39,553 nt of DNA, taken from assembly GCA_018302185.1 (NCBI GenBank), contig JAGVZX010000110.1, positions 1-39,553 of the forward strand. Direction: 5' to 3'. Made by a program: the position numbers and the translations under genes. The DNA comes from Candidatus Woesearchaeota archaeon (GTDB lineage Archaea; Nanobdellota; Nanobdellia; Woesearchaeales; UBA10200). The notes beneath the pieces are model-generated. The model was given only the letters and a program-made list of their open reading frames with translations, was not told where the DNA came from and did not search any database. Below are positions 13,779 through 39,553 of this stretch, one piece after another; within the stretch, counting starts at the first letter, position 1; each line of letters starts with the position of its first letter.

Positions 13779-14792
13779 GTGCCAAAGGTAATTCCTTACA
13801 GGGAGCCGCAGCAGAGGCAGATAGCAGAATGCTTAAAGCCATTGATGCAGGACATGAACGGCAAGAACCTTATGATGCATGGTCCTAGCGGCAACGGAAA
13901 GACAGTGGCATGCAAAAATCTGTTCCAAGAGCTTCAGGAAGAGACAGATGGGATAGAAGTGCTGTATATCAATTGCTGGCAGAAAAACACTTCTTTCAAG
14001 ATAATGTCAGATATGGCAGATCAGCTTGGATTCAAGTTCACACATAACTTAAAGACAGATGAATTGTTTAAGCTGATAAAGCAAAAAATAAATAAGGGCA
14101 GTGCAGTATTTTGCTTTGACGAGGCAGACAAGATAGAAGATTTTGATTTTCTTTATATGTTGCTGGAAGAAATTTATCGTAAAAGCATAATCCTGATAAC
14201 CAATTACCATCAATGGCTTATCAATCTTGATCCAAGGATAAAATCAAGGTTAACGCCAGATACTTTAGAATTCAGATCTTACAGCATGGATGAGATAGAC
14301 GGAATCTTAAGAGAGAGGATAAGCTATGCCTTTTTTGAGAATGCTTGGCAGGAAGATGCAATCAAGTTGATTGTGCAGAAGGCATATGAAGTCTCAGATA
14401 TAAGAGCTGGATTATATTTGCTTAAAGAAGCTGCATTGATTGCAGAATCTTCAAGCAACAAAAGGATAGGCATAGACCATGCAAGGAAAGCGATAGAAAA
14501 GTTAGTTGAATTCACTATAAAAAATTCAGCTGACTTGGAAGATGAGACCAGATTTATTCTTGCTGTTGTCAAAAAAAACCCAAGTTTAAAGATGGGAGAG
14601 CTGTTTAAACTATATGAAAAAGAAGGCGGAAAGTCAGTGTATAAGACTTTTACAAGGAAGATCGCTAAATTAGCAGAAAATAAGTTTGTTACTCTTGAAA
14701 GGGCAGTTGGCGGTTCAGAAGGCAACACTACAATAGTGAATTATCTCTCTACAGCCAGTAAGAAAGAAGAGAAGAAACTTACTGATTTCTAA
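13779..14792 (+). CDS. cdc6: Orc1/Cdc6 replication initiator (true start probably upstream, about 13704-13713)
   Basis: The signatures are Walker A MHGPSGNGKT, Walker B FCFDEADK and a C-terminal winged helix. The frame is open back to 13683 and encodes the conserved Orc1 N-terminal stretch ETLFKNPVVLDYDYVP, but that stretch has no ATG, GTG or TTG. Confidence 0.9.
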   Translation: MPKVIPYREPQQRQIAECLKPLMQDMNGKNLMMHGPSGNGKTVACKNLFQELQEETDGIEVLYINCWQKNTSFKIMSDMADQLGFKFTHNLKTDELFKLIKQKINKGSAVFCFDEADKIEDFDFLYMLLEEIYRKSIILITNYHQWLINLDPRIKSRLTPDTLEFRSYSMDEIDGILRERISYAFFENAWQEDAIKLIVQKAYEVSDIRAGLYLLKEAALIAESSSNKRIGIDHARKAIEKLVEFTIKNSADLEDETRFILAVVKKNPSLKMGELFKLYEKEGGKSVYKTFTRKIAKLAENKFVTLERAVGGSEGNTTIVNYLSTASKKEEKKLTDF

Positions 14793-15502
14793 GGCTTTGC
14801 CACAGTATTCCACAATAATTCAAAATATTTCCTGTAGCTGTCTGCAAGAGCTCGATTGTCAATTACAATCGCAGAAACCTCATCAGTAGATAACAAGATA
14901 ATAACAAGGCTTCCACATACATCAATCATCATCGGGCTCTGGTATTTGTCTGGCAGATACCTTGTATCATAGTCCTTTGCAACGCCTGTCTTTCTTGTGA
15001 ATTCATAGTATAATGCTTTTACTTTGCATTTGTTCGACTTCAATTCTTTAATAAATTTATCATGCCTGTGCTTAAGAAACTCTCTTGTTCTGCCAGAGCC
15101 ACCTATACCATAGATAGTTTCCTTTTGCGCCATCATCATGCTGTATGCAGTAGAAACACCATCTGGTCCGTGAAAATAATACACATGTTCTTTCTTTGGG
15201 TTTATGTTATAATCCAGCTTTAACTCAGGCAAAGCTTTTTCAACAAGATATTCTTTTTGCTTGATTATTTCTCTAAGGACATCAGGATTCACAACCTGGT
15301 ATGCTTTCTTCTTGTTTGCAATGATGCTGCTTACTAAGCCTTTTTCTGTCAATCTATCAAGGATATCATAGACATTTACCCTATGGACACCTGACTTCTT
15401 TGTTATCTCATTAACGTTTGCAGAGCCCAGCTTCAATAATGCAAGATATACTTTTGCTTCGTTGAATGTCAAGCCTGCTGCTAAGAGTGCTTCTTCTTTC
15501 AT
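14789..15502 (-). CDS. TrmB-family transcriptional regulator
   Basis: The N-terminal LTFNEAKVYLALLKLGSANVNEITKKSGVHRVNVYDILDRLTEKGLVS is the TrmB-type wHTH. The C-terminal part is a sensor-like domain. Confidence 0.8.
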   Translation of the reverse strand: MKEEALLAAGLTFNEAKVYLALLKLGSANVNEITKKSGVHRVNVYDILDRLTEKGLVSSIIANKKKAYQVVNPDVLREIIKQKEYLVEKALPELKLDYNINPKKEHVYYFHGPDGVSTAYSMMMAQKETIYGIGGSGRTREFLKHRHDKFIKELKSNKCKVKALYYEFTRKTGVAKDYDTRYLPDKYQSPMMIDVCGSLVIILLSTDEVSAIVIDNRALADSYRKYFELLWNTVAKP

Positions 15503-15958: not shown

Positions 15959-17494
15959 GTGAGGCTATTGATAGTAACTAATAAACAGCATTCTAAGATT
16001 GATGTAGCTAGCATTCTAAAGAAAAAATACTATTTTCAGGGATTTAACGGCACTCCAGGATTGTTGACATTTGGTGCACCTTCTTCCTGCAAATACATGT
16101 ATGAGTATCTGGGCTATGGCTATAGTGTGCTTGTTGATTTCTATGAGAATGACAAAGCATATTACGGCTATGCCTGGGATGATTTGCATAATATAAACGA
16201 CCATCTGATGCAAAATCTGAAAAAGAATAAGGATTACCTAAAAGTTATCTGGCAGAAACACACTTCCATCAACAAAGAGCATTTTAATGTTCTGAAAAAG
16301 CTTGATAAGTTAGAGTTAAATAAAATAGGCAACATAGAGCTGCTTGAGGACTACCATATTCTTGCAGAAGCTCTTAACAAGCTTTTGGGCGTAAGTCACA
16401 TGGTTGAGGGCTTCACTCTCACAAGCGAAGAAAAGATAAGATCACTTATTTTTGATGCAGTAAAAAAAATGGGGAGAGAGAAAGAATACAATCAGCTGAT
16501 TGCAGATCTGACTGCATCTACATTTCCTTCATTCATAGGAGAAGCTCATAATGCAATTGTGCTTGCAGCAGTTGAATATACTAAGCATGGAAAAAAAATA
16601 GCTAAGCTGCTAAAGCAATTGGAAAAAAAATATTACTGGCTTAACAACGGCTATTCATGCACGCATTATCTTGATGCAGATTACTTTATGCATGAGATTA
16701 ATGAGCTGGTAAAGAAAGGCATCACAAAAGAGATGGAGAATTATGCCAAAAATTACCGAAAGATTTTGTATGAGAATAAAAAAAGAAAGCAACAGCTTTT
16801 CAAAGAACTAAAACTAAGCGATGAGCTAATCCAACTTCTGGAAATCAGCGATTTTATGGCAAAACTGCAGGACAACAGGAAGCATGTTACTACAATCACT
16901 CTGAGCTATATTGATAACTTTTTGGCTGAAATAAGCAAGAGATATAATTTAAAGCATGAGCTTGTTCGCTACCTTATCCAAGCAGAAGTAACAGAATTTA
17001 ACCTGAACAATCTTACTGATCAAATGCTTGAAGAAAGAAGAGCAAAGTCAATATTTTTCTATACTTATGAAAGCCAGAAAGAGAAAGAGCCTGAAAAAAG
17101 AGGCATTGTATTTACTGGTAGAAAAGCAGAGCAGATGATAACTCAATTGATGGATGAAGACCATGGCGAGATCCATGAACTCAAAGGAAACTGTGCATCT
17201 CCTGGAAAAGTTACTGCAATAGTTAAAGTCTGCAGAGGAGCAAATGAGATTGCAAAAGTGCAGAGAGGAGATATTTTAGTTGCGTGCATGACACAGCCAG
17301 AGTTTGTTCCTGCAATGAAAAAAGCAGCAGCGATAATCACAGACGAGGGCGGTCTTACCTGCCACGCGGCAATTGTCAGTCGTGAACTTGGGATTCCATG
17401 CCTAATAGGCACAAGAAAAGCAACTAAAGTCTTAAAGGATGGCATGAAGGTTGAAGTTGATGCTGACAATGGGGTTGTTAGGATATTGAGATGA
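15959..17494 (+). CDS. PEP-utiliser swivel (phosphohistidine) domain protein, family copy P1
   Basis: The C-terminus reads GNCASPGKVTAIVKV...GDILVACMTQPEFVPAMKKAAAIITDEGGLTCHAAIVSRELGIPCLIGT...DGMKVEVDADNGVVRIL, which is the PF00391-type mobile domain. The start is GTG. The helical N-domain is shared with P2-P5. Confidence 0.85.
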   Translation: MRLLIVTNKQHSKIDVASILKKKYYFQGFNGTPGLLTFGAPSSCKYMYEYLGYGYSVLVDFYENDKAYYGYAWDDLHNINDHLMQNLKKNKDYLKVIWQKHTSINKEHFNVLKKLDKLELNKIGNIELLEDYHILAEALNKLLGVSHMVEGFTLTSEEKIRSLIFDAVKKMGREKEYNQLIADLTASTFPSFIGEAHNAIVLAAVEYTKHGKKIAKLLKQLEKKYYWLNNGYSCTHYLDADYFMHEINELVKKGITKEMENYAKNYRKILYENKKRKQQLFKELKLSDELIQLLEISDFMAKLQDNRKHVTTITLSYIDNFLAEISKRYNLKHELVRYLIQAEVTEFNLNNLTDQMLEERRAKSIFFYTYESQKEKEPEKRGIVFTGRKAEQMITQLMDEDHGEIHELKGNCASPGKVTAIVKVCRGANEIAKVQRGDILVACMTQPEFVPAMKKAAAIITDEGGLTCHAAIVSRELGIPCLIGTRKATKVLKDGMKVEVDADNGVVRILR

Positions 17495-17544
17495 GATATA
17501 AATGTATTAGATAAACCTAATTATAAACTTACGAGGCTCTTGAA

Positions 17545-19044
17545 ATGAACAAAGAACTGATCCAATCATTAGTGAAAAAGGAGTGGTATATACAGGGCAT
17601 TGCAGCAGTTCCTGTCTTTGTTTTTGCGTGCTCGATCTCTGGTATAAAAGCATGCAAAAAAACTCTTGGTTATGGGTATTCTAAGTTTATCTATGACTTC
17701 CAGAAGGATTATCTTGAATTATACTACAGCAGAGAAGACCTTCAATATATGTGTGATGAGTTCATGAAATGGTACAAGAAAGATAAAAATTACTTGAACT
17801 GGCTTGATGAGAAGAGTAATGAGGAAAAAAAGCCATTCTTTGAGTATATGAAAGAGCACCTTAACAGCCTTTCCAGATTAGATGACAACACGCTTCTGGA
17901 GCATTACAAAAAATTCGCAAACATGTTCTATTTTGCTTTTGGCGCATCTCACTTAGTTGAGGGGATCTCACTTACGACTGATGTTGTGTTCAAGGATCTG
18001 CTGCTGAAATCCCTGCAAAAGCTAAGTAAAGCAGACAAGTTCACTCTCTACTTTACTGAGCTGACACAGCCTACACGAAAGATGTTTTTCCCAGAGTTTA
18101 ATAAGAGCATGTCTGATATGGTTGATTATTATAAAAAACATCAAAAACAAAATAACTACAAAGAACCATCACTCGAAGACAAAAAGCTACAAGCAATGGT
18201 TGATGCCCATGTCAAAAGATTTTTCTGGATAAGATCGCAGTGGGACAAGGCAAGAGAATATACTCAGCAAGATGTAATTGATGAGATCAAGGATGCAGTA
18301 GATAAGAACGAGCAGATAACTGTTACAACTGATGCGCAGCTTATGAAGAATCTTTTGCGTAAAAAGAAATTGTTTAAAGAGCTAAACCTAAACCAAGAAT
18401 TGATCGACTTGGTCGAGATCACTGATTTTGTGACTTATTGGCAGGACCAGAGAAAGATAGTTATCTTATCTGGTGTTTATGCTTTCCAGCAGTTTGTCGA
18501 TGAGATAGCCAAGCGTTTTAATGTTGATTCTCGCGACCTCAAATATCTGTTGGCAGATGAAGTTAATCCAGATGATATTGGCTCCATCAAAAACATCAAC
18601 CTCAGAGAAAGAAGGAAGGCAAGCATATTTATCCATTATAAAGATCAGTTAGAAGTATTTACAGGAAATAGATACAAAGAGATCAAAGCCTTGCTTGTAA
18701 AGCAGCATAAGGAAGATGATGTCAAAGAGCTTAATGGAATGTGCGCTTCATTAGGCTGTGTGACTGGCAGAGTTAAAGTCTGTATAAATGCAGCAGAAAT
18801 CTCTAAAGTTGAAAAAGGAGATATACTTGTCACTTCAATGACAAGGCCAGAATTTGTGCCTGCGATGAAAAAAGCAGCTGCAATTATTACAGACGAAGGT
18901 GGCATCACAAGCCATGCTGCAGTGATAAGTAGGGAGTTAAAGATACCATGCATCATCGGCACGAAGAATGCAACCAAGCGCCTCAAAGACGGAGATTTGG
19001 TTATGGTAAATGCAAATCATGGATTGGTAAGGATTCTGAAGTAA
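17545..19044 (+). CDS. PEP-utiliser swivel domain protein, family copy P2
   Basis: GMCASLGCVTGRVKV...GDILVTSMTRPEFVPAMKKAAAIITDEGGITSHAAVISRELKIPCIIGT...VNANHGLVRILK. It lies in tandem 50 nt after P1. Confidence 0.85.
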   Translation: MNKELIQSLVKKEWYIQGIAAVPVFVFACSISGIKACKKTLGYGYSKFIYDFQKDYLELYYSREDLQYMCDEFMKWYKKDKNYLNWLDEKSNEEKKPFFEYMKEHLNSLSRLDDNTLLEHYKKFANMFYFAFGASHLVEGISLTTDVVFKDLLLKSLQKLSKADKFTLYFTELTQPTRKMFFPEFNKSMSDMVDYYKKHQKQNNYKEPSLEDKKLQAMVDAHVKRFFWIRSQWDKAREYTQQDVIDEIKDAVDKNEQITVTTDAQLMKNLLRKKKLFKELNLNQELIDLVEITDFVTYWQDQRKIVILSGVYAFQQFVDEIAKRFNVDSRDLKYLLADEVNPDDIGSIKNINLRERRKASIFIHYKDQLEVFTGNRYKEIKALLVKQHKEDDVKELNGMCASLGCVTGRVKVCINAAEISKVEKGDILVTSMTRPEFVPAMKKAAAIITDEGGITSHAAVISRELKIPCIIGTKNATKRLKDGDLVMVNANHGLVRILK

Positions 19045-19084: not shown

Positions 19085-21256
19085 CTAATGTGTTAGCTGA
19101 ACATATGATTCGGCAATGACTTTAGCAAGATCTTTCATATCAAACGATGCTTTTCTAAAGTTTACTCCAGTACCTCTTAGCTCTTTCATTGATGCCCTAT
19201 CAATTTGATTTACCCTGATCACTAAAGGAGTAACGCCAAAAGCTGCTGCTTCTTGCACAGCAGTAGCCATGTCAGCCCATGCATATCTTCCTTCATATTG
19301 CTGCTCCATATCCCATTTTTTTCTGTTTTCATCTGCAAGAATTTTTGATGTCGGATCAAATAATCGGTCATCATGCGGAGCGCCATCATTAAGATAAATC
19401 AAAAGCTTTATTTCTTCTGGACGAGATGAAAGCAGATATGTACCATGCCTGATTATTGCGCCATCCCTATTTTTGTACTGAGGCTCCAGCTGATTAAGCC
19501 TTTCACGCAGAGTTTCTCTTCCAAGAGAATCATCAAAACCCTTTAGTTTATAGAAAAAAGTAGTTCTTGATTTAATACCATAACCTTTTGAATGCTTACC
19601 TTCAACTTTGCTTGTGACAGCATAGATAGCACACGGATCATTGCAGACATCAAGTCCTACAGCAAAATACATCGTTGCTTCTTTTAATTTATCTAGCACA
19701 GAATGTTCTGGATCTATCAACTCACCTGTTGAATCGCTGACATCTATCAATAATAATGCTGCTACGCTTCGTTCCTCTCTTCTAGGCTCATAACAAAATA
19801 AAGGTCTGACAGGAGTATCTGCTTTGAGTTTGGCTAAAAATCTTGAATACTCCCTTTTATCCATCCTTCTTCCTGGCTTAGGCATTAACTTTCTTTTTAT
19901 TACGAGCCCTTCTGGACTAAGAGAATCAAATTGCGCTTTTATATTTCTCTCAATAGATTCTTCAGGCTCAGAAAAACCAAATACTGGCTGTTCTGGTTTT
20001 GGGATGTCTTTTTCATGTACTATTACATGCTGCTGCATAAACCTGCCTTGAATATAATTCCATTCATGATAACTAGGATCTCCAACTAAAGAAAGTTTTT
20101 TTCTGGTTGCTAATGCTATAGCTGCTTCTCTTTTATATATTACTCCTTTTTCATCCTTCATACTACGTGGATTAGATACATTATTTAAATTATCAAGAAC
20201 ATCTCGTATATTTCTTTCAACATCAGGCACAGATACATTCTGAGCAGGGTCAAGAATTGGCAGCTTGCTATCTAGCATTAGCTCAACTATCCTAAAATAA
20301 AGATCAACTGCTACTCTAACTGAATCATGGATATCTTTTTCAGATTCGAAAATCTTTCTGCTTATATTGAAGAGATCTTCTACAATCGGTTTAACTGCTT
20401 TTTCCCACTGTTCTAGCACAGCCGATCTTGAAGGATTATATTTTACTATATCTGCAAGAGATTTATGCCTTTCGTCTTCTTTTGACTGATATTTTCTGAA
20501 TTCATTGTCAAAATCCATAGACTGAAATAATAAAGAATATTCAAATCTTCGCATCACAAAATCAAATAAATAGGGTGATTGAAGTGTTGGTCTTGCACTG
20601 CATGATCTTTTTATGATATCTTTAGCTAAACAGTCATAAAAATAAGAAAGATTTCTTGAGCACCAGTCATATGAAGCTGGAAAATCCCTAAAAAAATTAC
20701 CCATTATCCTTCCTCTTTCTATAATCCCTATTAAATCACCCATAAGATTAAAGTGAAGAAAATAAGCTGCAAAATTGTATTTATATTTAATAGGTAATTC
20801 AATTTTAGAGAGCTCTGATTTTATTAAATCAAATTTAGGATATACATCTATCAGACCGGGTTCTGTTCCTTCTAATCCAGATAACAAATACGCTTGACAA
20901 TGATGTACCGGATTATGTTTTCCAAATCTTTCTTTGCCTTCTTTATATGCAGCTTTTACTATATCTGCAAGTGTTTTATTATTAAACCCTTTATTATAAC
21001 GAAACTGGGCTGCATTAAGCGCTGCAAGCGCAACATAAGTCATCTTATTATCTTCCCTATCCTCAAACACATTTATTTGCTCAGGAAAATTTGCTATAAT
21101 TGCTTTATCACGATCACGCGCATCACCAATTCCAAGTCCAGTATTGCCGTTGAAAAGAATTTCAATAGGTACTGTTGCTATTGCCCTCATATAAGCTCTA
21201 AGCAAACTATTTACTTCATCTATCCTAACTATTGGAGATTCAACAGCCATGCTCAT
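19085..21256 (-). CDS. NorD/CbbO/CobT-type von Willebrand factor A protein
   Basis: The C-terminal vWA has an intact MIDAS DVSDS (19730-19744). RDGAIIRHG, LLIYLNDGAPHD and YEGRYAWADMATAVQEAAAFG are family hallmarks. The YHEWNY motif lies upstream of the vWA. It is the last gene of the operon, 17 nt after the AAA+ gene. Confidence 0.8.
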   Translation of the reverse strand: MSMAVESPIVRIDEVNSLLRAYMRAIATVPIEILFNGNTGLGIGDARDRDKAIIANFPEQINVFEDREDNKMTYVALAALNAAQFRYNKGFNNKTLADIVKAAYKEGKERFGKHNPVHHCQAYLLSGLEGTEPGLIDVYPKFDLIKSELSKIELPIKYKYNFAAYFLHFNLMGDLIGIIERGRIMGNFFRDFPASYDWCSRNLSYFYDCLAKDIIKRSCSARPTLQSPYLFDFVMRRFEYSLLFQSMDFDNEFRKYQSKEDERHKSLADIVKYNPSRSAVLEQWEKAVKPIVEDLFNISRKIFESEKDIHDSVRVAVDLYFRIVELMLDSKLPILDPAQNVSVPDVERNIRDVLDNLNNVSNPRSMKDEKGVIYKREAAIALATRKKLSLVGDPSYHEWNYIQGRFMQQHVIVHEKDIPKPEQPVFGFSEPEESIERNIKAQFDSLSPEGLVIKRKLMPKPGRRMDKREYSRFLAKLKADTPVRPLFCYEPRREERSVAALLLIDVSDSTGELIDPEHSVLDKLKEATMYFAVGLDVCNDPCAIYAVTSKVEGKHSKGYGIKSRTTFFYKLKGFDDSLGRETLRERLNQLEPQYKNRDGAIIRHGTYLLSSRPEEIKLLIYLNDGAPHDDRLFDPTSKILADENRKKWDMEQQYEGRYAWADMATAVQEAAAFGVTPLVIRVNQIDRASMKELRGTGVNFRKASFDMKDLAKVIAESYVQLTH

Positions 21257-21273
21257 TTATCTCATCCCCTAAA

Positions 21274-22086
21274 TCATCCCCTAACATTTGTTTTTATTAA
21301 TTTATCTACAGCTTCAATTACAGTCTGATCATGCGATAGAACAACACTAATACATGCATGACAAGCTTCATAAGAGGGAGTACCTGAAACGATTTGCTGC
21401 GCTGCTTTAATTAAAGAATGATATCCAATCGATTCTTTTAGGCTTCCAGCATATTCTTGTGACCTATGCAGCTCATCTATAGTTTTAGCAAGCATATCCA
21501 ACTGCCTTGCCAATTTTAAGTCAATACCGCTTTCATTAACAATAATATCTACGCCTTGCTCACCCCTTACATAACTGAATTCTATGCCGACAAATCTTTG
21601 CGCTAAGCTTGGCTTTGGAAATCTTCTTGCTGCTTTTTGATAAGCTGCTCCTGGATTCATAGAGACAATAAACATAAAATCTTTGCCAGGCCTGATCACT
21701 TCGCCTATCTCTCCAACATGAAGTTCCCTTCTCCAATCTGCTAATGTATGGCATAACGGCAAAACATCTTCATTCATCTCTAATATCTCTTCTAAATGAG
21801 TATATGCTTGAATTTTTGCACCGATATACAATGGCCCTGGAATAAAAACACTTTCATATCCAGGAATTGTAATGCATGGCATTCCGTGCTGATATGCCAT
21901 AAAATCAACAAATCTAGATTTACCAGAGCCTGTTGGCCCTAACAGCATTACTGACTGTCCATTTTTCTTAGCATTCTCAAATATCTGCACTTCATTGCCA
22001 ACTGGATGATAAAATGGTTTTTTCTGTACTTTAAATTGCTCAACATATTTTGAGATATCTTTTTCATCAAATTCAATTTTTATCAT
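21274..22086 (-). CDS. CbbQ/NorQ/NirQ-type (MoxR-class) AAA+ ATPase
   Basis: PFYHPVGNEVQIFENAKKNGQSVMLLGPTGSGKSRFVDFMA carries Walker A at 21916-21939. SMNPG (sensor 1 context), LAQRF and the 270-aa length match the family. Walker B reads THLEE (21787-21798). Confidence 0.85.
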   Translation of the reverse strand: MIKIEFDEKDISKYVEQFKVQKKPFYHPVGNEVQIFENAKKNGQSVMLLGPTGSGKSRFVDFMAYQHGMPCITIPGYESVFIPGPLYIGAKIQAYTHLEEILEMNEDVLPLCHTLADWRRELHVGEIGEVIRPGKDFMFIVSMNPGAAYQKAARRFPKPSLAQRFVGIEFSYVRGEQGVDIIVNESGIDLKLARQLDMLAKTIDELHRSQEYAGSLKESIGYHSLIKAAQQIVSGTPSYEACHACISVVLSHDQTVIEAVDKLIKTNVRG

Positions 22087-22966: not shown

Positions 22967-22981
22967 CTCGTTAACATAATT

Positions 22982-24262: not shown

Positions 24263-24325
24263 ACGCCTTAACAGTAGATAGAATATTTAGAATTAATTAG
24301 TAATTTTTCTAAAAAACCCGTAAAA

Positions 24326-24335
24326 TTTATAAATA
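24326..24335 (+). promoter_or_regulatory. TATA-box-like element for the tandem-Lrp gene
   Basis: tttataaata lies 21-30 nt upstream of the ATG at 24356. Confidence 0.45.
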
Positions 24336-24355
24336 AACCTAGTTTATTATGCACT

Positions 24356-25474: not shown

Positions 25475-25558
25475 CATATTAGCTTTTATCTATTTATGTT
25501 CGTCAAAATTTGGCAGTTGCTGAAACTTTTGTCGTTATATCTAAACAAATCTTTTTAT

Positions 25559-28493: not shown

Positions 28494-28727
28494 TTTTCCT
28501 ATATTTTACTATCCTTAAGTAATAACTTATTTAACACCAATTTTTTCAGAAACTAAACACCTTATCTAGGAATATTTTATGAATAAGAGCTAATATTATT
28601 AGTGTTATTTATATCTAACTTCTTATTTTTATAAAAAAGACGTAAAAATATAATAAATAATATGGTTTTTTTATAAATAAATAGGTAAAAAATAGAATAT
28701 AAGAAAAGCAGAAAACTCAAGAAAAGG

Positions 28728-28822
28728 TGTATCATCAGCACAAAGATCCTCACCAAAGTGCTTAAAGACGGAGATTTGTCATGGTAAATGCAAATCATGG
28801 CATTGTGAAGATATTGAAGTAA
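28728..28822 (+). pseudogene. Relic 3' end of a PEP-utiliser swivel domain gene (closest to P2)
   Basis: It reads CIISTKILTKVLKDGDL, then has a 1-nt deletion, then MVNANHGIVKILK and a stop. The corresponding P2 sequence at 18949-19044 is CIIGTKNATKRLKDGDLVMVNANHGLVRILK and a stop. A core of about 38 nt is almost identical. No upstream coding sequence remains, only an AT-rich tract. Confidence 0.8.
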
Positions 28823-28844: not shown

Positions 28845-29174
28845 CTAATTATTTACAACTATCACTTTTTTCTTTGTGGCACTTACCATCGCTTGCCTAA
28901 TCAAAGTTGCTTCCAGCTCTAAAATTTTCTTAACAACAGGGCTTTCTGCATTTAATGTGTAAAGCCTTGTCTTGCCAAACCTTCTTGTTTCTCTTACTAA
29001 TCCGTTTTTTTCCAATTGCTCCCAATAATTAAATACAGATGCTCTGGAGATTTCAGCGCCTTTTTCTATATCGGTTTTTGTAAAATCTAATCCTTTATTC
29101 TCTACAAGAAAATCTATGATTTTAAATAAGGGCATTTCTCCGGTTAATTGCAATAATAATGATTTGTCTTTCAT
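28845..29174 (-). CDS. Winged-helix DNA-binding protein (paralog of 32550-32894)
   Basis: LFKIIDFLVENKGLDFTKTDIEKGAEISRASVFNYWEQLEKNGLVRETRRFGKTRLYTLN has an HTH-plus-wing pattern. I prefer the ATG at 29174. A TATA-like gatttatatac lies about 30 nt upstream. Confidence 0.7.
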   Translation of the reverse strand: MKDKSLLLQLTGEMPLFKIIDFLVENKGLDFTKTDIEKGAEISRASVFNYWEQLEKNGLVRETRRFGKTRLYTLNAESPVVKKILELEATLIRQAMVSATKKKVIVVNN

Positions 29175-29617: not shown

Positions 29618-31051
29618 GTGCATATTGGATGGATGATCTGCGATGGGATGAGAAAGTACGACAGAGAATTGATAGGTAGACCTTTCACAAGAACATTATA
29701 TTCTGCAGAGCCTAAAAATAACTTTTCCTTATGGTGCTGGTGGCAGGATGATCTTACTAAGATGGGAAAATATCTTGTTGATAATTCAAGAAATAATGAT
29801 TGGCTTTCTAGTCATGTTGCTCTACATAAGAAAGTTGCAGGAGAGGCACAGGCAATAGCTGCAAAAATAAAGCAGCTAAATCTTTTAGAGTTGTCTGACA
29901 ACCAGCTTTCTTTCCTGTATGCTGACTTGATGATAAAAGCAGAACGCTTCAACGCTCTTTCCATGGAGATAGATGCTTTGGACTTGGTGCTTGAAGAAGA
30001 ATTAAAGAAAGCCATCTCATCTACGTTTGCTGCAAAAAGAGAGCAGAATGAAGCATATACGATAATAACAACGCCATCTGAGCTTAGCGCTCCTAAAAAA
30101 GAAGAGCTTATGTTCTACAGGCTTGCACTTACTCTAAAAGAGACAAAAAAGTATGATGATAAATTAATCAACAGCATACTCTCAGATTTCTGGTGGACAG
30201 AGCTTAATTGGCGCGCAGGCGATGGAAAAACTTTGCAGACAATAAAAAAGGGAATTGATAATATCCTTAAAGAGGCAAAAGACATACCCAAACATATCAG
30301 AAAGCTGGAAAATTATTCTGATGAGATAGTTGGATTAAAAAAGAAATATCTCAAAAATCCAGAGCTTAATGTTCTGAATAATATCTTTGAAGAATATGCT
30401 CTTCTGCATGAGCTCAGAAAAGAGACACAGATGAAGGCAACTTTTAGCCTTTATCTTATTTTTGAGGAAATCTCAAAACGCTTTGGCATTTCAGTAAATG
30501 ATCTTGAAGTATATTCTCCAGATGAATTAATATTGCTATTGGAGAAAGAAAGAAAAATATCAGACGAAGAGATTGCAAATAGATTGCAATGCTCAACTCT
30601 GTTTATCAATGAGAATGGTTGTGTTGGTAATAAGAATGATCATGACAATAACAGCGTGTTGTTTAAGTCAGGTGAAGATGCAATCAAACTAAAAGCATCT
30701 GAGCAGAGCAAAGAAAGTGATGCAATAAGGGATTTCTCTGGATTGCCTGCTTCTTTGGGAAAAGCAGTCGGCAGAGTGAAGATTGCTTTAAGTGCAGCAG
30801 AAGCACTAAAGAAGATCGAGAAGGGCGATATTCTAGTAACTGGAATGACAATGCCTGACTTTGTTCCAGCGATGAAAAAAGCTGCAGCAATCATCACAAA
30901 CGAAGGTGGCGCTACTTGCCATGCTGCAATAATCTCTAGAGAGTTTAATATTCCATGTATTGTCGGCACTAAGATTGCAACTAAAATTCTGAAAGATGGG
31001 ATGATGGTGGAAGTGAATGCCAATCATGGAGTGGTTAAGATAATAAAATGA
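29618..31051 (+). CDS. PEP-utiliser swivel domain protein, family copy P3
   Basis: GLPASLGKAVGRVKI...GDILVTGMTMPDFVPAMKKAAAIITNEGGATCHAAIISREFNIPCIVGT...VNANHGVVKIIK. The start is GTG. The N-terminus is shorter than in P1, P2 and P4. Confidence 0.8.
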   Translation: MHIGWMICDGMRKYDRELIGRPFTRTLYSAEPKNNFSLWCWWQDDLTKMGKYLVDNSRNNDWLSSHVALHKKVAGEAQAIAAKIKQLNLLELSDNQLSFLYADLMIKAERFNALSMEIDALDLVLEEELKKAISSTFAAKREQNEAYTIITTPSELSAPKKEELMFYRLALTLKETKKYDDKLINSILSDFWWTELNWRAGDGKTLQTIKKGIDNILKEAKDIPKHIRKLENYSDEIVGLKKKYLKNPELNVLNNIFEEYALLHELRKETQMKATFSLYLIFEEISKRFGISVNDLEVYSPDELILLLEKERKISDEEIANRLQCSTLFINENGCVGNKNDHDNNSVLFKSGEDAIKLKASEQSKESDAIRDFSGLPASLGKAVGRVKIALSAAEALKKIEKGDILVTGMTMPDFVPAMKKAAAIITNEGGATCHAAIISREFNIPCIVGTKIATKILKDGMMVEVNANHGVVKIIK

Positions 31052-32535
31052 GCACAAACAACCTAAAAAAACTGATCCAGTCAAAAGAATGGTACTATCA
31101 AGGCGCAGAAGCCAGGCCTTTGTACATAAATATTCCGCTCAGGTCTTCAGTTGACAGCGAGGATCCTGGAAAAAAAGACAAGTATTCTCTGATAATCCTG
31201 CATTTCAGCAATGATTTCTGCGACATATATTATGATAAGTTTGGCATGAAGAGAATAACAGATGGCATCTTGTTGCAGCAGGAAAAAGATAACAAGACAA
31301 TTGATAATCTCTATGGTTCATGCATCAAGGTGATGGATAACTTTATCGGAAATGAAATGAAGTTCATGTCAGTAGATCCTAAAAAGCTGTCAGACAAAGC
31401 TCTCGTATCTAAATTAAATGAAGTATGCACTGCAGCAAAGCATGTTTGGGATCATGTGCTGTTCATTGATGCATTTGATATAATAAGCGATAAAATCATA
31501 AGTTCATCTTTTGACAGCTATAATAATAGCCATAATTTTGCAGGCAGCAAGATCACGAATAAGGAAATAGAGATACTCACTCTTCCTGATGAGCTTGCAT
31601 TCACGCAGCGAGAAAGATTATCTTTGCTTAAGATCGCAGCAGCTGCAAAAGAAGGCAAAAATATTGAAAAGGCTATTGCAGAACATCAGCAGCAGTTTTT
31701 CTGGTATAAGAGCAATTACTCTGTCATTGAGATTCTCGACGAGAGTTATTTCATGCAAAAGCTTGATGCAGTGTTAAAGAATGAATCTGCTGAGCAGATC
31801 AAAAAAGATATCATGTCGTTTGAATCATATGAGAAAAGAATAAAGCAGCAGAAAGAGGATATCTCTAAGAAACACAATCTAAACAGCAGCCTGAAAGAGA
31901 CCATCTATTTTTTTACCAGGCTGACTCTGCTCCGTGACCATAGGAAAGAATGGGTGCTAAAGTCGCATGTCCTGATCAAGCATCTTGCAGCTGAGATATC
32001 AAAGCGCGCAAAAATACCTCTCCATGAGCTTGAATACCTATCTTACTGGGAGATCGAGAGCATTGCTCAATTAAAGAAGATGAAAAATCTGAATGAAAGG
32101 ATTAAAGATTCTGCCTGGGTTGCAGATGAGAGTTATGGATATGCAGGGCATTTTGGGAAAGAAGCTGTGCAGATAAATGGCTTTCTGCAGAAAAGGATAG
32201 TCACAGAAATAAATGCCTTGCAGGGCGTAGCTGCGTCATCTGGCTATGCAAAAGGAAATGTTAAGATAATTAATCGGGTGCAGGAATTCTCAAAGATGCA
32301 GAAAGGCGATATATTAGTATCTTCAAACACAAGGCCAGAGTATGTGCCTATAATGAAATTAGCTGCAGCAATAATCACAGACGAAGGAGGCATCACTTGC
32401 CATGCTGCAATTGTCTCTAGAGAATTAAAGATACCTTGCATTGTAGGAACACAGGCAGCGACTAAAGTCCTGAAAGATGGCATGGTAGTTGAGGTAGATG
32501 CTGAGAAGGGCGTTGTAAAGATAGTTAAAGAATAA
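31048..32535 (+). CDS. PEP-utiliser swivel domain protein, family copy P4
   Basis: GVAASSGYAKGNVKI...GDILVSSNTRPEYVPIMKLAAAIITDEGGITCHAAIVSRELKIPCIVGT...VDAEKGVVKIVKE. It has an ATGA start/stop overlap with P3. Confidence 0.85.
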   Translation: MSTNNLKKLIQSKEWYYQGAEARPLYINIPLRSSVDSEDPGKKDKYSLIILHFSNDFCDIYYDKFGMKRITDGILLQQEKDNKTIDNLYGSCIKVMDNFIGNEMKFMSVDPKKLSDKALVSKLNEVCTAAKHVWDHVLFIDAFDIISDKIISSSFDSYNNSHNFAGSKITNKEIEILTLPDELAFTQRERLSLLKIAAAAKEGKNIEKAIAEHQQQFFWYKSNYSVIEILDESYFMQKLDAVLKNESAEQIKKDIMSFESYEKRIKQQKEDISKKHNLNSSLKETIYFFTRLTLLRDHRKEWVLKSHVLIKHLAAEISKRAKIPLHELEYLSYWEIESIAQLKKMKNLNERIKDSAWVADESYGYAGHFGKEAVQINGFLQKRIVTEINALQGVAASSGYAKGNVKIINRVQEFSKMQKGDILVSSNTRPEYVPIMKLAAAIITDEGGITCHAAIVSRELKIPCIVGTQAATKVLKDGMVVEVDAEKGVVKIVKE

Positions 32536-33272: not shown

Positions 33273-34679
33273 ATGTGCATTTTAATGCTGAAAATGAACT
33301 CCAAAGAAGCAAAATTGCGGATAAAGGAATTCCTTTCTAATCTAGATCAGAAATCTCTTGAGATTGAATTAGATCCTGGTGTAAAAGATAGCCAAGTTTA
33401 TCCTAAAAGCGAAATAAGATATTATTTTAATTTTTTGTTGAACAGAATCTTGGGTAAAGTTCCGCCATGTAAGATCAAAAATTCATTGCTTAGGATGATC
33501 GGTGTAAAATTAGGCAAAGAGATCTGCCTTCCTATGGATGTTCTCTTTGATTATCGTTATCCTGAGCTCATCGAAGTTGGAGATAATACTTTAATCGGTG
33601 GATATACACAGATATTTGCGCATATGATAAGGGAGCCATACAAAGAAGAGAATAAAGCCAAATATTATGGTAAAAAAAGATACGCAAGCATAAACAGATT
33701 GAACCAAAAAAGCCATAAGCTAGTTGAAGGAAAACGAATCTTAAAGTTAGGCAGAGTAAAGATCGGCAAAGATGCTCTGGTTGCGAGCATTGCAGACTTT
33801 GAGCCAGGCGTAACAGTAGGGGATAATGCTATCATCGGTACAGCGACCTATGTTGATAAGGATGTTCCAGAGTTAGGCTTTGTTGGTTCGCGTCCAATGA
33901 GATTGATAAAAATAGTTGATGCAGGCTGGAATCATATAGACAGGACAGATACTGCTGCTTTTTATCACGAGCAAAAAGATATGACTAGGAAATTTTTGCG
34001 CGATAGAACAATTCCATCTCTAAACATAACTTACAAAGGCAAGCGTGGAAATGCGGGCAATGAATGGTTCAGGATGCGCAACCCATTAAAGATCTGGATC
34101 ACTGCTGCCTGGGTAGAATTTACTGCATTTTTTCCAGCATGCTGGCTGAAGAATTTTCTTTTGAGATTTACAGGCGCAAAAATCGGCAGAAATGTAAGAA
34201 TAGAGCAGTTTGCATATATTGATCACATAAATCCTGATCTAATTACTATCGAGGATAATGCAGTTCTGAAAACAGGCTCGCTTATCGGCGGACATGATTT
34301 TATCAATAACAAATCCTCGTTAGGAAGGCCAGTGATTGGCGAAGGAGCGATCATAAAAGAGAATGCGATGGTACAGTGCCATTACACTAACAAGGTAACT
34401 GGACAAGAAGAAAGATTGGTTGTCGGTAAGCATGCAATAGTCGAGCCATGGAGTTTTGTTGACAGGCCAGTGCCAGATGATACTATTGTTTCAGGATGGC
34501 CAGCAAAGCCCTTGGCGCATGCAGGAGAGTCGATCAAAGTAGTTAGTGAAAAAGCTACGTATAATCCAGGTCATGAGCATAATGTCAATCATTTACCTCC
34601 ACCTGTCGAACATCATAAGCATACAGAACATCATCAACATTCAATACACCATCATTCTAGCGCGCATGAGAAAAAATAA
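33273..34679 (+). CDS. Internally duplicated left-handed beta-helix (hexapeptide-repeat) acyltransferase with a His-rich C-terminal tail
   Basis: It has two halves, each with a (I/L)KN(S/F)LLR(M/F)(I/T)G(V/A)K(L/I)G lead-in and hexapeptide stretches (VGDNTLIGGYTQIFAH; VGDNAIIGTATYV; IEDNAVLKTGSLIGGH; IGEGAIIKENAMV). The tail is HEHNVNHLPPPVEHHKHTEHHQHSIHHHSSAHEKK (34572-34676). Confidence 0.75.
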   Translation: MCILMLKMNSKEAKLRIKEFLSNLDQKSLEIELDPGVKDSQVYPKSEIRYYFNFLLNRILGKVPPCKIKNSLLRMIGVKLGKEICLPMDVLFDYRYPELIEVGDNTLIGGYTQIFAHMIREPYKEENKAKYYGKKRYASINRLNQKSHKLVEGKRILKLGRVKIGKDALVASIADFEPGVTVGDNAIIGTATYVDKDVPELGFVGSRPMRLIKIVDAGWNHIDRTDTAAFYHEQKDMTRKFLRDRTIPSLNITYKGKRGNAGNEWFRMRNPLKIWITAAWVEFTAFFPACWLKNFLLRFTGAKIGRNVRIEQFAYIDHINPDLITIEDNAVLKTGSLIGGHDFINNKSSLGRPVIGEGAIIKENAMVQCHYTNKVTGQEERLVVGKHAIVEPWSFVDRPVPDDTIVSGWPAKPLAHAGESIKVVSEKATYNPGHEHNVNHLPPPVEHHKHTEHHQHSIHHHSSAHEKK

Positions 34680-38195: not shown

Positions 38196-39032
38196 ATGTA
38201 CGACCTATCCAAAGTAAAATTTTTCATGCAATGCAGCGCAAATACACTGCACCACAACTGGCCATTGATGCAGGCATTCAATATTAGATTGGAAGAGCTT
38301 TCTAAAGGACATGGCCTTACAGTTTGTGTCACATTTCTCAAGAAAAAAGGCGATGAAAGCACCTGGGCATTAGATGAGGATTGCTATCTTGATGAAGGAA
38401 AATATTATGAGCAGAATTCTACAGAGTTAGAGAAATTATTCTATGCATGGCTTGTTGCGAGAAAGAATTTCTATGATGTTGTCGAGCAGATTGATGCAAA
38501 GATTGCTGGTCTGACAGATAGTGATGGTGAAATAAGCCTAGCTGCTTTATTAGAGCTTTATAAGAAATTTAACTATGCTTATGTTGAGGAATATGCAACT
38601 GCATTGATCAGCGATTACTTTGTGGTGTATGGTGATAATATCATCAAAGAGATAAGCGATAAGCTCACAAAAGAGCAGCAAAAAAACATCACTGCATTGA
38701 CTTCTCCTTTAAAGCTTCCTTTTTTAGGCGAAGAGCAGCTTAATGAATTAAAGATAGGTTTAAGGCTTATTGAGAACAAGGAAGTGAATAAAAATTATAA
38801 AATATTATCGCCGGATACAAAAGAATCCATTCTTTCACATCAGAAAGAATATTTCTGGATAAGAAATAACTACAAATACACAACTCCTATCTCTTGCAAT
38901 CAATTTTTTGAAGACATAAAGCATGAGATTGCAAACTTATCTCCTCTTGAAATAACCAAAAAAATCTCTGAGCTTCAAAATTATGAAGAGTTGCTGAAAA
39001 AGAAAAAGCAGCAAGCTTTAGCAGGATTGTAA
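38196..39032 (+). CDS. PEP-utiliser swivel domain protein, family copy P5, N-terminal part (frame-shifted relative to the remainder)
   Basis: It carries the family N-domain motifs (HQKEYFWIRNNYKY). It stops at TAA 39030-39032, where the paralogs continue. Confidence 0.75.
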   Translation: MYDLSKVKFFMQCSANTLHHNWPLMQAFNIRLEELSKGHGLTVCVTFLKKKGDESTWALDEDCYLDEGKYYEQNSTELEKLFYAWLVARKNFYDVVEQIDAKIAGLTDSDGEISLAALLELYKKFNYAYVEEYATALISDYFVVYGDNIIKEISDKLTKEQQKNITALTSPLKLPFLGEEQLNELKIGLRLIENKEVNKNYKILSPDTKESILSHQKEYFWIRNNYKYTTPISCNQFFEDIKHEIANLSPLEITKKISELQNYEELLKKKKQQALAGL

Positions 39033-39034
39033 AA

Positions 39035-39553
39035 TTAGAATTGATCTCAAAAGTCTCATGGTGGGCAGACCAGCGTAAAAAAGCAAATCTTGTTGCAAAT
39101 CATTACATCAATGTATTTCTTGCTAGATTTAGTGAATTATTAAGCGCAAAATTTGGCAAAAAGATAAAATTAGAGCAGCTTCAGTTTACCCTGCTTCCTG
39201 AACTTGAAGCTTTATGCAATATTGGGAATTCTGAACAAGAGAAAGAAATTAAGCAAGAGAAGGAGATTAAACATGAGAAGGCAATTAAAGAAGAAAAAGA
39301 GAATAAACAGATGAAAGAAATCTTTGGCAATATTACTCGTAGATTAAAAGGCTGCGCATACTATCTTGATAAGCAAGGAAATGAAAAAATATTTGTCGGA
39401 AAGGAATTTAAGGAGGTTTGCAGGAAGATCTTGGAAAAAAACCTAGAAAATGAGATAAAAGACATCCGTGGCACTACTGCTTCTTACGGCAATGTTACTG
39501 GCAAAGTGCGTATTGTCATAAATCCAGCTGCTGCAAAATTCGAGAAAGGAGAA
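39035..39553 (+). CDS. P5 continuation in the -1 frame; runs off the window end
   Basis: This frame is open from 38987 to the window end. It reads LELISKVSWWADQRKKANLV...GTTASYGNVTGKVRIVINPAAAKFEKGE, the family D-x-RK segment and the start of the swivel domain. It is not in the ORF track because it is edge-truncated. Confidence 0.75.
39236..39307 (+). repeat. Four tandem 18-nt coding repeats (QEKEIK/QEKEIK/HEKAIK/EEKENK) inside P5
   Basis: Read directly in the P5 continuation frame. The segment is absent from P1-P4. Confidence 0.8.

What the first reader, a model, noticed from the sequence alone, without database searches (positions are those of the whole stretch)
15959..19044. Expanded family of about 500-aa proteins: divergent helical N-domain fused to a PEP-utiliser swivel phosphohistidine domain, without ATP-grasp or PEP/pyruvate domains
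There are five copies in 39.5 kb plus one relic. The copies are P1 15959-17494, P2 17545-19044, P3 29618-31051, P4 31048-32535 and P5 38196-39553.

All end in G-x-AS-x-G-x3-G-x-VK...GDILV..(M/N)T.P(E/D)(F/Y)VP.MK.AAAIIT(D/N)EGG.T(C/S)HAA(I/V)(I/V)SRE...IPC(I/L)(I/V)GT...DG...V.A..G(V/L)V(R/K)I. This is the mobile His domain of PEP synthase, PPDK, enzyme I and rifampicin phosphotransferase. The acceptor His is retained in P1-P4; P5 is cut off by the window end before that position.

The roughly 400 N-terminal residues are homologous among copies. Shared motifs are EWY.QG, H.VEG.(S/T)LT, (F/Y)FW.(R/K)(S/N)(Q/N)(W/Y), (E/I)(S/T)DF...QD.RK and ISKR(F/Y). They are much more divergent than the C-terminus and show no P-loop or ATP-grasp signature.

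From memory, the D.RK...ISKR... segment before the swivel domain resembles the substrate-binding part of rifampicin-phosphotransferase-like PpsA homologues. That would make these proteins substrate-domain plus His-domain modules that depend on a trans-acting ATP-grasp partner. The diversified N-domains would then suggest different substrates or targets.
Basis: partly seen in the sequence, partly recalled or inferred. Interest (0 to 1): 0.75.

Follow-up and report, generated by a model that had tools for sequence, protein, structure and literature searches.

The report
Split rifampin-phosphotransferase-like kinase modules, tandemly expanded
These genes encode the "substrate pocket plus phosphate-carrying arm" half of a two-part ATP-driven kinase, present in many old and very different copies in a tiny symbiotic archaeon, and the ATP-binding half that most likely serves them is encoded separately just outside the window.

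Summary
The window has four intact paralogs (P1-P4), a fifth broken by a 22-bp deletion (P5) and a 35-codon relic. Each is a roughly 400-aa helical domain fused to a PF00391 phosphohistidine swivel domain. None has a PPDK_N or PEP/pyruvate domain.

AlphaFold models of P2 and P4 (pLDDT 94 and 92) match only rifampin phosphotransferase over their full length, covering its rifampin-binding domain plus swivel. The family motif D-x-R-K aligns with the catalytic E667/K670 region of that enzyme.

So these are the HpeH/PpsA/CreH-type subunit of a two-component small-molecule dikinase, a kind that is already known.

The ATP-grasp partner is not in the window. A syntenic Woesearchaeota relative encodes a 306-aa PPDK_N 3.6 kb downstream of the P5 ortholog's end. 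Of 77 related loci, 28 carry a stand-alone PPDK_N nearby and 4 carry it fused.

The unusual part is the arrangement, seen across DPANN archaea and CPR bacteria:
- co-oriented arrays of up to 11 anciently diverged modules;
- never more than one ATP-grasp gene detected per locus;
- multi-module proteins, including one with PPDK_N plus seven modules.

The substrates are unknown.

The parts
15959..17494 (+). P1: 511-aa module. It has an RPH-like helical substrate domain (about residues 1-405, with motif QDNRK at residues 304-308; D305-K308 = nt 16871-16882). The swivel region starts near residue 410, nt 17186 (Pfam PF00391 match: residues 435-505). The catalytic His469 is at nt 17363-17365.
   Evidence: The ortholog in L001 is 90% identical, with dN/dS 0.14 (N-domain) and 0.09 (C-domain).
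17545..19044 (+). P2: 499-aa module. The substrate domain covers residues 1-392, with D301-x-R303-K304 at nt 18445-18456. The swivel domain starts near nt 18736. The catalytic His457 is at nt 18913-18915.
   Evidence: AF2 model: pLDDT 93.9. Foldseek top hits are RPH-Lm 5FBU/5HV1/5FBT, E 1e-13, with 468-574 aligned columns. Profile alignment to RPH 630-866.
28700..28822 (+). Relic: the last roughly 35 codons of a swivel domain, with one frameshift. It lies beside the 19085-28459 gene block, which is absent from the syntenic relatives.
29618..31051 (+). P3: 477-aa module of a naturally shorter subfamily, with no WYxQG strand inside the ORF. The motif is HELRK (E265-x-R267-K268, nt 30410-30421). 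His435 is at nt 30920-30922. Its stop overlaps the P4 start by 4 nt.
   Evidence: The L001 ortholog is 84% identical, with dN/dS 0.17 (N-domain) and 0.03 (C-domain).
31048..32535 (+). P4: 495-aa module. The motif is RDHRK (D297-x-R299-K300, nt 31936-31947). His452 is at nt 32401-32403.
   Evidence: AF2 model: pLDDT 92.5. Foldseek top hits are RPH-Lm, E 2e-14, TMq 0.55.
38196..39553 (+). P5: a module disrupted by a 22-bp deletion between 39025 and 39026, which causes a frameshift and a stop at 39032. The second frame runs off the end of the window just as the swivel domain begins.
   Evidence: The intact 534-aa allele in L087 differs only by the 22-bp indel. The L086 ortholog (519 aa) is 80% identical.
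33273..34679 (+). Duplicated left-handed beta-helix (hexapeptide) protein resembling O-acetyltransferases. It is a recurrent neighbour of the arrays in archaeal loci.
   Evidence: Pfam Hexapep. NCBIfam acetyltransferase families match, all below their cut-offs. It is 33% identical (E 2e-60) to the L002 neighbour. A homolog is present in 16 of 81 loci.
14789..15502 (-). TrmB-family regulator, divergently oriented upstream of P1/P2. It is a recurrent neighbour and a candidate regulator of the array.
   Evidence: Pfam TrmB, E 2e-17. Its cluster is found in 15 of 81 loci.

Best explanation
Each paralog is the substrate-binding plus phosphocarrier subunit of a two-component, ATP-dependent small-molecule dikinase. 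It is the equivalent of HpeH, PpsA or CreH, or of rifampin phosphotransferase (RPH) without its ATP-grasp domain.

**Proposed cycle**
1. A separately encoded ATP-grasp protein (PPDK_N, about 310 aa) binds ATP.
2. The catalytic His of the swivel domain (P2 His457) attacks the beta-phosphate.
3. The gamma-phosphate is lost as Pi and AMP is released.
4. The swivel domain swings back onto its own N-domain.
5. There the conserved D/E-x-R-K site positions the phosphohistidine.
6. The phosphoryl group passes to a hydroxyl or enol oxygen of a small molecule held in the variable helical pocket.

**What is shown**
- The domain architecture, the fold, and retention of the His and the D-x-RK site.
- Purifying selection on both domains.
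- Genetic linkage and fusion with PPDK_N in relatives.

**What is inferred**
- The chemistry itself.
- That one ATP-grasp protein charges all the modules of an array.
- That the different paralogs take different substrates.

**Biological role**
My best guess is phosphorylation of several different scavenged or foreign small molecules. That phosphorylation could serve trapping, activation or modification. In the archaeal loci it may work together with the neighbouring O-acetyltransferase-like, phosphotransacetylase and HAD-phosphatase genes. The substrates are unknown.
For: **Architecture**
- PF00391 is the only Pfam domain, in P1-P4.
- NCBIfam alignments extend into the C-terminal 170-260 residues of RedH, PigC and RPH models.

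**Fold**
- The P2 and P4 models have pLDDT 93.9 and 92.5.
- RPH-Lm is the only PDB entry that matches the N-domain as well as the swivel domain.

**Active site**
- Profile alignment puts D301 on RPH E667 and K304 on RPH K670.
- RPH R666 and E667 are essential for the second phosphotransfer (PMC4844700).
- Across 294 diverse members, D301 (86%), R303 (92%), K304 (88%) and His457 (100%) are conserved. The rest of the N-domain is highly variable.

**Partner**
- A stand-alone PPDK_N lies within 10 kb in 28 of 77 species-representative loci. It is within 300 bp in 11 of them and on the same strand in 27 of 28.
- L002 has at least 6 modules plus one PPDK_N.
- The syntenic relative L086 has PPDK_N 3.6 kb downstream of the P5 ortholog's end.
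- Fusions exist with PPDK_N plus 1, 2 or 7 modules.

**Shared-partner constraint**
- Swivel domains are 61-68% identical and N-domains 18-29%.
- Synonymous sites are saturated in both domains, so this is selection, not gene conversion.

**Functional paralogs**
- 303 of 310 members have their closest relative in another genome.
- Ortholog dN/dS is 0.03-0.17.

**Precedent**
HpeHI, CreHI and PpsAB work in exactly this split way (PMC12167813).
Against: - No PPDK_N gene exists in the 39.5-kb window, in the 21.5 kb held from the closest relative's contig (L001, P2 94% identical), or upstream in L081. The partner for this genome is inferred from synteny only.
- About half of the uncut 21-kb loci (19 of 36) show no PPDK_N within 10 kb.
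- The N-domain does not match the NCBIfam PRK08296 '~600-aa protein with C-terminal swivel' models beyond the swivel domain. That these models represent PpsA/HpeH-type subunits is my recollection, not a tested fact. If it is right, this is a separate clade from the characterised split kinases.
- RPH R666 aligns with Gln in P1 and P2 (Arg only in P4). The family's invariant Arg sits three residues later.
- I had no coordinates to verify that these residues face His457 in the model.
- No biochemical data exist. HAD phosphatases in the same operons would oppose a simple kinase role.
Confidence: 0.72

Rival explanations
1. The modules are partner-independent phosphotransferases. They would move a phosphoryl group between phosphorylated and unphosphorylated small molecules through the His, or they would be charged by a donor other than an ATP-grasp protein, such as PEP or an acyl phosphate made by the neighbouring phosphotransacetylase.
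For: - HpeH alone catalyses phosphotransfer from 4-phosphoacetophenone to acetovanillone (PMC12167813).
- There is no PPDK_N in the window or in about half of the loci.
- PTA_PTB is a recurrent neighbour, in 12 loci.
Against: - PPDK_N is the protein most specifically linked to the family: it is often directly adjacent and co-oriented, and in 4 loci it is fused.
- PTA is found only in archaeal loci, not in CPR arrays.
- The strong conservation of the swivel surface is best explained by a common protein partner.
Confidence: 0.1
2. [quoted passage not shown]
For: - The swivel domain is closer to genuine PEP synthase than to RPH (8a8e E 1e-32 against RPH E 1e-17). It also keeps the PEPS-type GGxT(S/C)HAA motif with the Thr (PMC12167813).
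- There is no stand-alone partner in the window.
Against: - Dedicated stand-alone PPDK_N genes sit in or beside the arrays, including in the syntenic relative.
- Those PPDK_N proteins are themselves PEPS-like, which explains the PEPS-like swivel without involving PpsA.
- Trans-charging by an intact three-domain PEPS has no precedent that I know of.
Confidence: 0.06
3. The proteins are ligand sensors or regulators rather than enzymes. The N-domain would bind a metabolite and the phosphorylation state of the swivel domain would pass on a signal.
For: - Some homologs carry an N-terminal winged-helix domain (P0015, P0019).
- TrmB-type regulators are recurrent neighbours.
- Small uncharacterised ORFs flank P3/P4; by eye they look like winged-helix proteins, though Pfam found nothing.
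Against: - The catalytic D/E-x-R-K site that RPH uses for transfer to its substrate is conserved.
- Up to 11 modules per locus and proteins with 7 modules are hard to explain as regulators.
- Every characterised relative is an enzyme.
Confidence: 0.05
4. The copies are decaying fragments of PEP synthase or RPH genes, that is pseudogene debris in a low-quality assembly.
For: - P5 carries a 22-bp deletion.
- A relic is present.
- SerRS in the same window has an in-frame TGA.
Against: - P1-P4 are intact.
- Orthologs show dN/dS of 0.03-0.17.
- The models are high-confidence, compact two-domain folds.
- More than 3,800 representative clusters carry the same N-domain, and the best 150 are mostly about 500 aa long.
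Confidence: 0.02

Closest known systems
Two-component small-molecule dikinases: HpeHI (Rhodococcus), CreHI (Corynebacterium), PpsAB phenylphosphate synthase (Thauera); the HpeH/CreH/PpsA subunit
   Same: - The split is the same: one protein carries an RPH-like substrate-binding domain plus a C-terminal His swivel domain, and a separate ATP-grasp protein of about 40 kDa does the charging (PMC12167813).
- The catalytic His motif is shared.
- The partner gene is encoded alongside in relatives.
   Different: - The window proteins are about 500 aa, against about 610-650 aa.
- Their N-domains do not match the NCBIfam PRK08296 models beyond the swivel domain. That those models stand for PpsA/HpeH-type subunits is my recollection.
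- The residue two positions before the His is Thr, as in PEP synthase, where the paper reports Met for HpeH and RPH.
- The known systems are 1:1 pairs in aromatic catabolism of free-living bacteria. Here there are arrays of 4-11 old paralogs with at most one ATP-grasp gene detected per locus, in DPANN archaea and CPR bacteria.
Rifampin phosphotransferase RPH (PDB 5FBS/5FBT/5FBU/5HV1; NF041857)
   Same: - It is the only solved structure matching both domains (Foldseek E about 1e-13, TMq 0.5-0.55).
- The domain order is the same: substrate domain, then swivel.
- The E667/K670 region aligns with family D301/K304.
   Different: - RPH has the ATP-grasp domain fused at its N-terminus (867 aa).
- Sequence identity is about 14-17%.
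- NCBIfam scores are 64-79 bits against a cut-off of 999.
- The substrate pocket residues are not conserved.
Prodiginine ligases PigC/RedH/HapC
   Same: - They have three-domain RPH-like enzymes with an ATP-binding domain, a substrate-binding domain and a catalytic swivel domain (PMC13534948).
- They gave the longest NCBIfam alignments of P2-P4 (for example P4 231-494 to RedH 610-879).
- They show that phosphorylation in this superfamily can serve to activate a substrate for condensation, not only to inactivate it.
   Different: - They are fused single polypeptides of about 880 aa.
- Scores of 75-82 bits are far below the cut-offs of 1300-1350.
- No prodiginine pathway genes are present here.
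PEP synthase (PpsA, TIGR01418)
   Same: - The swivel domain is about 65% identical to that of the PEP synthase structure 8a8e.
- The associated stand-alone PPDK_N is most similar to the PEPS N-domain (E 3e-97).
   Different: - There is no PEP/pyruvate TIM-barrel domain (PF02896).
- The RPH-like helical domain occupies the N-terminus instead.
- Scores of 121-139 bits are far below the cut-offs of 598-740.

Membership tests
Two-component small-molecule dikinase, substrate/swivel subunit (HpeH/CreH/PpsA type) | C-terminal PEP-utiliser swivel domain with the catalytic His in a GGxxxH motif | tested here: met
   PF00391 E 1e-25 to 1e-27. GGxT(C/S)HAA is present in P1-P4. The His is 100% conserved in 294 members.
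Two-component small-molecule dikinase, substrate/swivel subunit (HpeH/CreH/PpsA type) | N-terminal domain homologous to the rifampin-binding domain of RPH | tested here: met
   AF2 plus Foldseek: RPH-Lm is the top and only full-length hit for P2 and P4. The profile aligns to RPH 630-866.
Two-component small-molecule dikinase, substrate/swivel subunit (HpeH/CreH/PpsA type) | No ATP-grasp domain in the same polypeptide; a separate ATP-grasp subunit is encoded nearby | tested here: inconclusive
   The absence in cis is met. No partner is in the window. A partner is present in the syntenic relative L086 and in 28 of 77 related loci, and is fused in 4.
Two-component small-molecule dikinase, substrate/swivel subunit (HpeH/CreH/PpsA type) | ATP-dependent phosphorylation of a small molecule through a phosphohistidine, yielding AMP + Pi | not testable with these tools
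   This needs biochemistry.
Two-component small-molecule dikinase, substrate/swivel subunit (HpeH/CreH/PpsA type) | Sequence membership in the HpeH/CreH/PpsA clade (about 45% pairwise identity among these proteins) | tested here: not met
   The NCBIfam PRK08296 models match only the last roughly 110 residues, at 62-106 bits against cut-offs of 578-730. Equating these models with the PpsA/HpeH type is my recollection, so this is an indirect test. The window proteins form a separate clade of the same architectural class.
Rifampin phosphotransferase (NF041857 / NF000283) | Three domains in one chain: ATP-grasp, RIF-binding and swivel | tested here: not met
   No PPDK_N domain. Scores of 49-79 bits against cut-offs of 999 and 1700.
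PEP synthase / PPDK | PPDK_N ATP-grasp plus swivel plus PEP/pyruvate TIM barrel (PF02896) | tested here: not met
   Only the swivel domain is present.
PTS Enzyme I | N-terminal HPr-binding/swivel domain plus C-terminal PEP-binding domain | tested here: not met
   Only weak swivel-domain hits, at 35-44 bits against a cut-off of 342.

The most novel reading that the evidence does not exclude
DPANN archaea and CPR bacteria carry a modular 'one charger, many heads' phosphorylation system. A single ATP-grasp protein or domain would phosphorylate the near-identical swivel arms of up to a dozen anciently diverged substrate modules, which are sometimes strung together in one multi-module protein. This battery would be their general means of phosphorylating, and so trapping, activating or neutralising, the many small molecules they must take from hosts. 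It would stand in for conventional kinases that these reduced genomes lack.
Probability: 0.2. Interest if true: 0.85.

Novelty: new variant of a known kind. Interest (0 to 1): 0.62.

Why it matters
DPANN archaea and CPR bacteria have genomes of about 1 Mb with large metabolic gaps. Even so, in the best 77 species-representative loci this uncharacterised family fills about a third of the roughly 20 kb around each hit.

The family has no Pfam or NCBIfam model for its N-domain. Databases label it only 'PEP-utilizing enzyme' or 'hypothetical', and sometimes 'phosphoenolpyruvate synthase', which could mislead metabolic reconstructions.

Recognising these proteins as RPH/HpeH-type kinase modules has three practical consequences:
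- It gives a concrete biochemical hypothesis that can be tested directly: module plus PPDK_N plus ATP.
- It corrects a likely annotation error.
- It points to a previously unnoticed one-to-many arrangement of a swivelling-domain enzyme.

The substrates could reveal what these symbionts take up or defend against.

Tried and rejected
- **ATP-grasp partner in the window.** I looked with Pfam on 34 other ORFs (33 of >=100 aa plus one of 88 aa) and with tblastn using a bona fide stand-alone PPDK_N. Nothing was found. The 303-aa ORF at 34727-35638 is not a PPDK_N.\n- **Extending the window.** Exact-protein look-ups gave an upstream contig (L081) without PPDK_N. The downstream contigs (L087-L089) end at P5. 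It is uninformative because synonymous sites are saturated. I used window-versus-L001 orthologs instead.\n- **Anti-phage defence role.** There are no PADLOC hits for the family or for the LbH protein; only the Fic gene hits SoFic/PDC-S04.\n- **UDP-GlcNAc 2-epimerase fusion.** The apparent fusion in some homologs (precomputed PF02350) turned out to be a weak overlap with a second swivel domain, mostly below the Pfam cut-off. Those proteins simply carry two PF00391 domains.\n- **Literature.** Searches for this family in CPR or DPANN found nothing. The held library is incomplete, so this is absence of evidence only.\n- **tRNA scan of the window:** none found.


Full report
**1. What is in the sequence**

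The window carries four intact co-oriented genes:
- P1, 15959-17494, 511 aa
- P2, 17545-19044, 499 aa
- P3, 29618-31051, 477 aa
- P4, 31048-32535, 495 aa

P1 and P2 are 50 bp apart. P3 and P4 overlap by 4 nt.

A fifth copy, P5, starts at 38196, stops at 39032, and continues in another frame to the window end. L087, a contig with no other differences across the shared 1,358 bases, has an intact 534-aa gene here. The window differs from it only by a 22-bp deletion between 39025 and 39026. P5 is therefore a very recent pseudogene or an assembly error.

A relic of the last roughly 35 codons, with one frameshift, lies at about 28700-28822.

All copies are clearly homologous, with tblastn E-values of 1e-41 to 1e-90. 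N-domains are only 18-29% identical, while the C-terminal 107 residues are 61-68% identical.

**2. Domain identity**

Pfam finds only PF00391, the PEP-utiliser mobile domain (E 1e-25 to 1e-27). It finds no PPDK_N (PF01326) and no PEP-utilizers_C (PF02896), even at E<=1.

The swivel domain keeps the catalytic His in GGxT(C/S)HAA. It is about 65% identical to the swivel domain of the PEP synthase structure 8a8e.

NCBIfam models of RedH, PigC and RPH align beyond the swivel domain into the last 170-260 residues of the N-domain. All of these scores are far below the model cut-offs.

AlphaFold2 models are confident: P2 has pLDDT 93.9 and pTM 0.91, and P4 has pLDDT 92.5 and pTM 0.90. The two share the same order of secondary-structure elements.

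Foldseek against the PDB gives rifampin phosphotransferase of Listeria (5FBU, 5HV1, 5FBT, 5FBS) as the top hit for both models:
- E is 1e-13 to 2e-14 and TMq is 0.51-0.55.
- Between 468 and 587 columns are aligned.
- Every other hit covers only the swivel domain.

The 400-aa N-domain is therefore an RPH 'rifampin-binding-domain'-like fold, not an ATP-grasp.

**3. Catalytic site**

A profile of 97 family members aligns to RPH-Lm residues 630-866. It places the family motif Q/R-D-x-R-K on RPH R666-E667-Y-P-K670, with D301 on E667 and K304 on K670.

In RPH, R666 and E667 are essential for the second phosphotransfer, from His to substrate. K670 belongs to the same hydrogen-bond network (PMC4844700).

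Across 294 diverse members from 81 loci:
- The only well-conserved N-domain residues are P176, W228, D301 (86%), R303 (92%), K304 (88%), E320, R324, E339 and R356.
- Most of these sit in the last third of the domain.
- The mean frequency of the commonest residue per column is 0.28 for the N-domain and 0.64 for the swivel domain.

This is the pattern expected for a shared phosphotransfer chemistry combined with variable substrate pockets.

**4. The partner**

No PPDK_N is encoded in the window. None is in the 21.5 kb held from the closest relative's contig (L001, where P2 is 94% identical). None is upstream in L081. Elsewhere the link is strong.

- **L002**, a 280-kb metagenomic contig, has at least six modules, then PTA_PTB, a hexapeptide protein, another module, and a 317-aa stand-alone PPDK_N immediately downstream.
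- **L086** is from a Woesearchaeota MAG (GCA_016180275.1) that is syntenic with the 3' part of the window.
  - Its P5 ortholog is 80% identical.
  - Its gene order is hexapeptide protein, Fic, P5 ortholog, module, ParE, PTA_PTB, two small ORFs, then a 306-aa PPDK_N.
  - By synteny, the window's partner should lie roughly 4 kb beyond its 3' end.
- **GTDB species representatives.** More than 596 stretches encode relatives. I analysed the best 77 loci.
  - 28 have a stand-alone PPDK_N within 10 kb. It is within 300 bp of a module in 11 and within 2 kb in 22, and on the same strand in 27 of 28.
  - Four loci carry fusions: PPDK_N plus one module (L044, 830 aa; L061, 803 aa), plus two modules (L065), and plus seven modules in one ORF of at least 3,323 aa (L056, a Parcubacteria MAG). 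Pfam confirms these, with 1 PPDK_N and 7 PF00391 in L056.

These fusions are classical evidence that the two parts work together, and that one ATP-grasp can serve several modules.

**5. Arrays and evolution**

In the 77 loci, each at most 21.5 kb:
- There are 294 full-length modules, with a median of 4 per locus.
- 31 loci have five or more, and the maximum is 11.
- 293 of the 294 are co-oriented.
- They occupy 35% of the DNA.
- No locus shows more than one PPDK_N.

The hosts are DPANN archaea (Woese-, Nano-, Pace-, Micr- and Iainarchaeota) and CPR/Patescibacteria.

A profile built only from the window's N-domains finds 3,811 representative clusters at 50% identity (2,308 at E<=1e-10). Many are proteins with 2 to 4 modules.

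The paralogs are old. Synonymous sites are saturated in both domains, which excludes recent gene conversion as the reason for the conserved swivel domain.

For 303 of 310 modules, the closest relative lies in another genome rather than in the same array. Arrays are therefore sets of distinct, conserved subfamilies.

Window-versus-L001 orthologs give dN/dS of 0.08-0.17 for the N-domain and 0.03-0.09 for the C-domain. Both domains are under purifying selection.

**6. Context**

Recurrent neighbours in archaeal loci are:
- a duplicated hexapeptide protein resembling O-acetyltransferases (window 33273-34679; 16 loci)
- a TrmB-type regulator (window 14789-15502; 15 loci)
- HAD phosphatases (13 loci)
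- phosphotransacetylase (12 loci)
- Fic (6 loci)

This points to small-molecule modification chemistry but does not identify a pathway. There are no PADLOC defence hits for the family.

**7. Comparison with the known**

Split dikinases of exactly this kind have been characterised: HpeHI, CreHI and PpsAB. HpeH is the RPH-like substrate domain plus swivel, and HpeI is the ATP-grasp. The proposed mechanism runs through a pyrophosphoryl-His and then a phospho-His, yielding AMP and Pi (PMC12167813).

The differences are these:
- This is a separate sequence clade, in that the NCBIfam PRK08296 models match only the swivel domain. That those models stand for the PpsA/HpeH type is my recollection.
- The proteins are shorter, at about 500 aa.
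- The swivel and ATP-grasp parts are PEPS-like, including the Thr two residues before the His, where the paper reports Met for HpeH and RPH.
- The family is restricted to ultra-small symbionts.
- The arrangement is one-to-many arrays and multi-module proteins.

I found no paper describing this family in CPR or DPANN. The held library is incomplete, so this is weak negative evidence.

**8. Verdict**

The best explanation is that these are substrate/phosphocarrier modules of a two-component dikinase charged by a shared ATP-grasp protein (confidence about 0.7). The substrates and the physiological role are unknown. I rate it a new variant of a known kind, of moderate to high interest.

Noticed in passing
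window 10979-12262 (+), stop codon at 11735-11737: The seryl-tRNA synthetase gene is interrupted by a single in-frame TGA where close relatives (L001, L085) have TTA (Leu). The rest of the protein is 97% identical to the intact 427-aa L001 ortholog. This is a nonsense mutation, a sequencing error or read-through in an essential gene.
   Followed up: partly
window 19085-28459 (-) and 24356-25474 (+): A block of about 9.4 kb lies between P2 and the relic. It holds a 723-aa protein, a CbbQ/NorQ-type AAA+ ATPase (21274-22086), ORFs of 297, 426 and 966 aa with no Pfam hits, and a double AsnC/Lrp-HTH regulator. It is absent from the syntenic relatives L001, L085 and L086. It looks like an insertion that may have destroyed a sixth family copy, leaving the relic at 28700-28822. 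There are no PADLOC hits.
   Followed up: partly
window 28845-29216 (-) and 32550-32894 (-): Two small paralogous ORFs (123 and 114 aa) flank the P3-P4 pair on the opposite strand. By eye their sequences look like winged-helix proteins, but there are no Pfam hits. They are possible local regulators. Orthologs of similar size sit in the same positions in L086 and L087.
   Followed up: no
window 35755-36768 (+), and 201-1318 (-): A Fic/DOC protein hits the PADLOC models SoFic and PDC-S04 and is a recurrent neighbour of the arrays (6 loci). A HEPN plus nucleotidyltransferase pair (785-1318 and 201-788) sits at the window start. Both are toxin-antitoxin or defence-like modules interspersed with the family.
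   Followed up: partly
L056 2-9973 (Candidatus Parcubacteria bacterium, JBDKJL010000038.1): A single ORF of at least 3,323 aa contains one PPDK_N followed by seven tandem (substrate domain + PF00391) modules. Another stand-alone module follows it. The N-terminus is cut by the locus edge, so the protein is even longer.
   Followed up: partly
Homologs P0034, P0069, P0092, P0096, P0103, P0106, P0015, P0019: Variant architectures exist. Some proteins have two PF00391 swivel domains, sometimes with one at the N-terminus. Others have an N-terminal winged-helix (HTH_24 / HVO_A0114) domain fused to a module.
   Followed up: partly
window 34727-35638, 36996-37859, 37849-38166, 12318-13490: Four ORFs (303, 287, 105 and 390 aa) have no Pfam or NCBIfam hit. 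The 303-, 287- and 105-aa ORFs are conserved with identical products or lengths in contigs L087-L089. The first three lie between the hexapeptide gene and P5.
   Followed up: no
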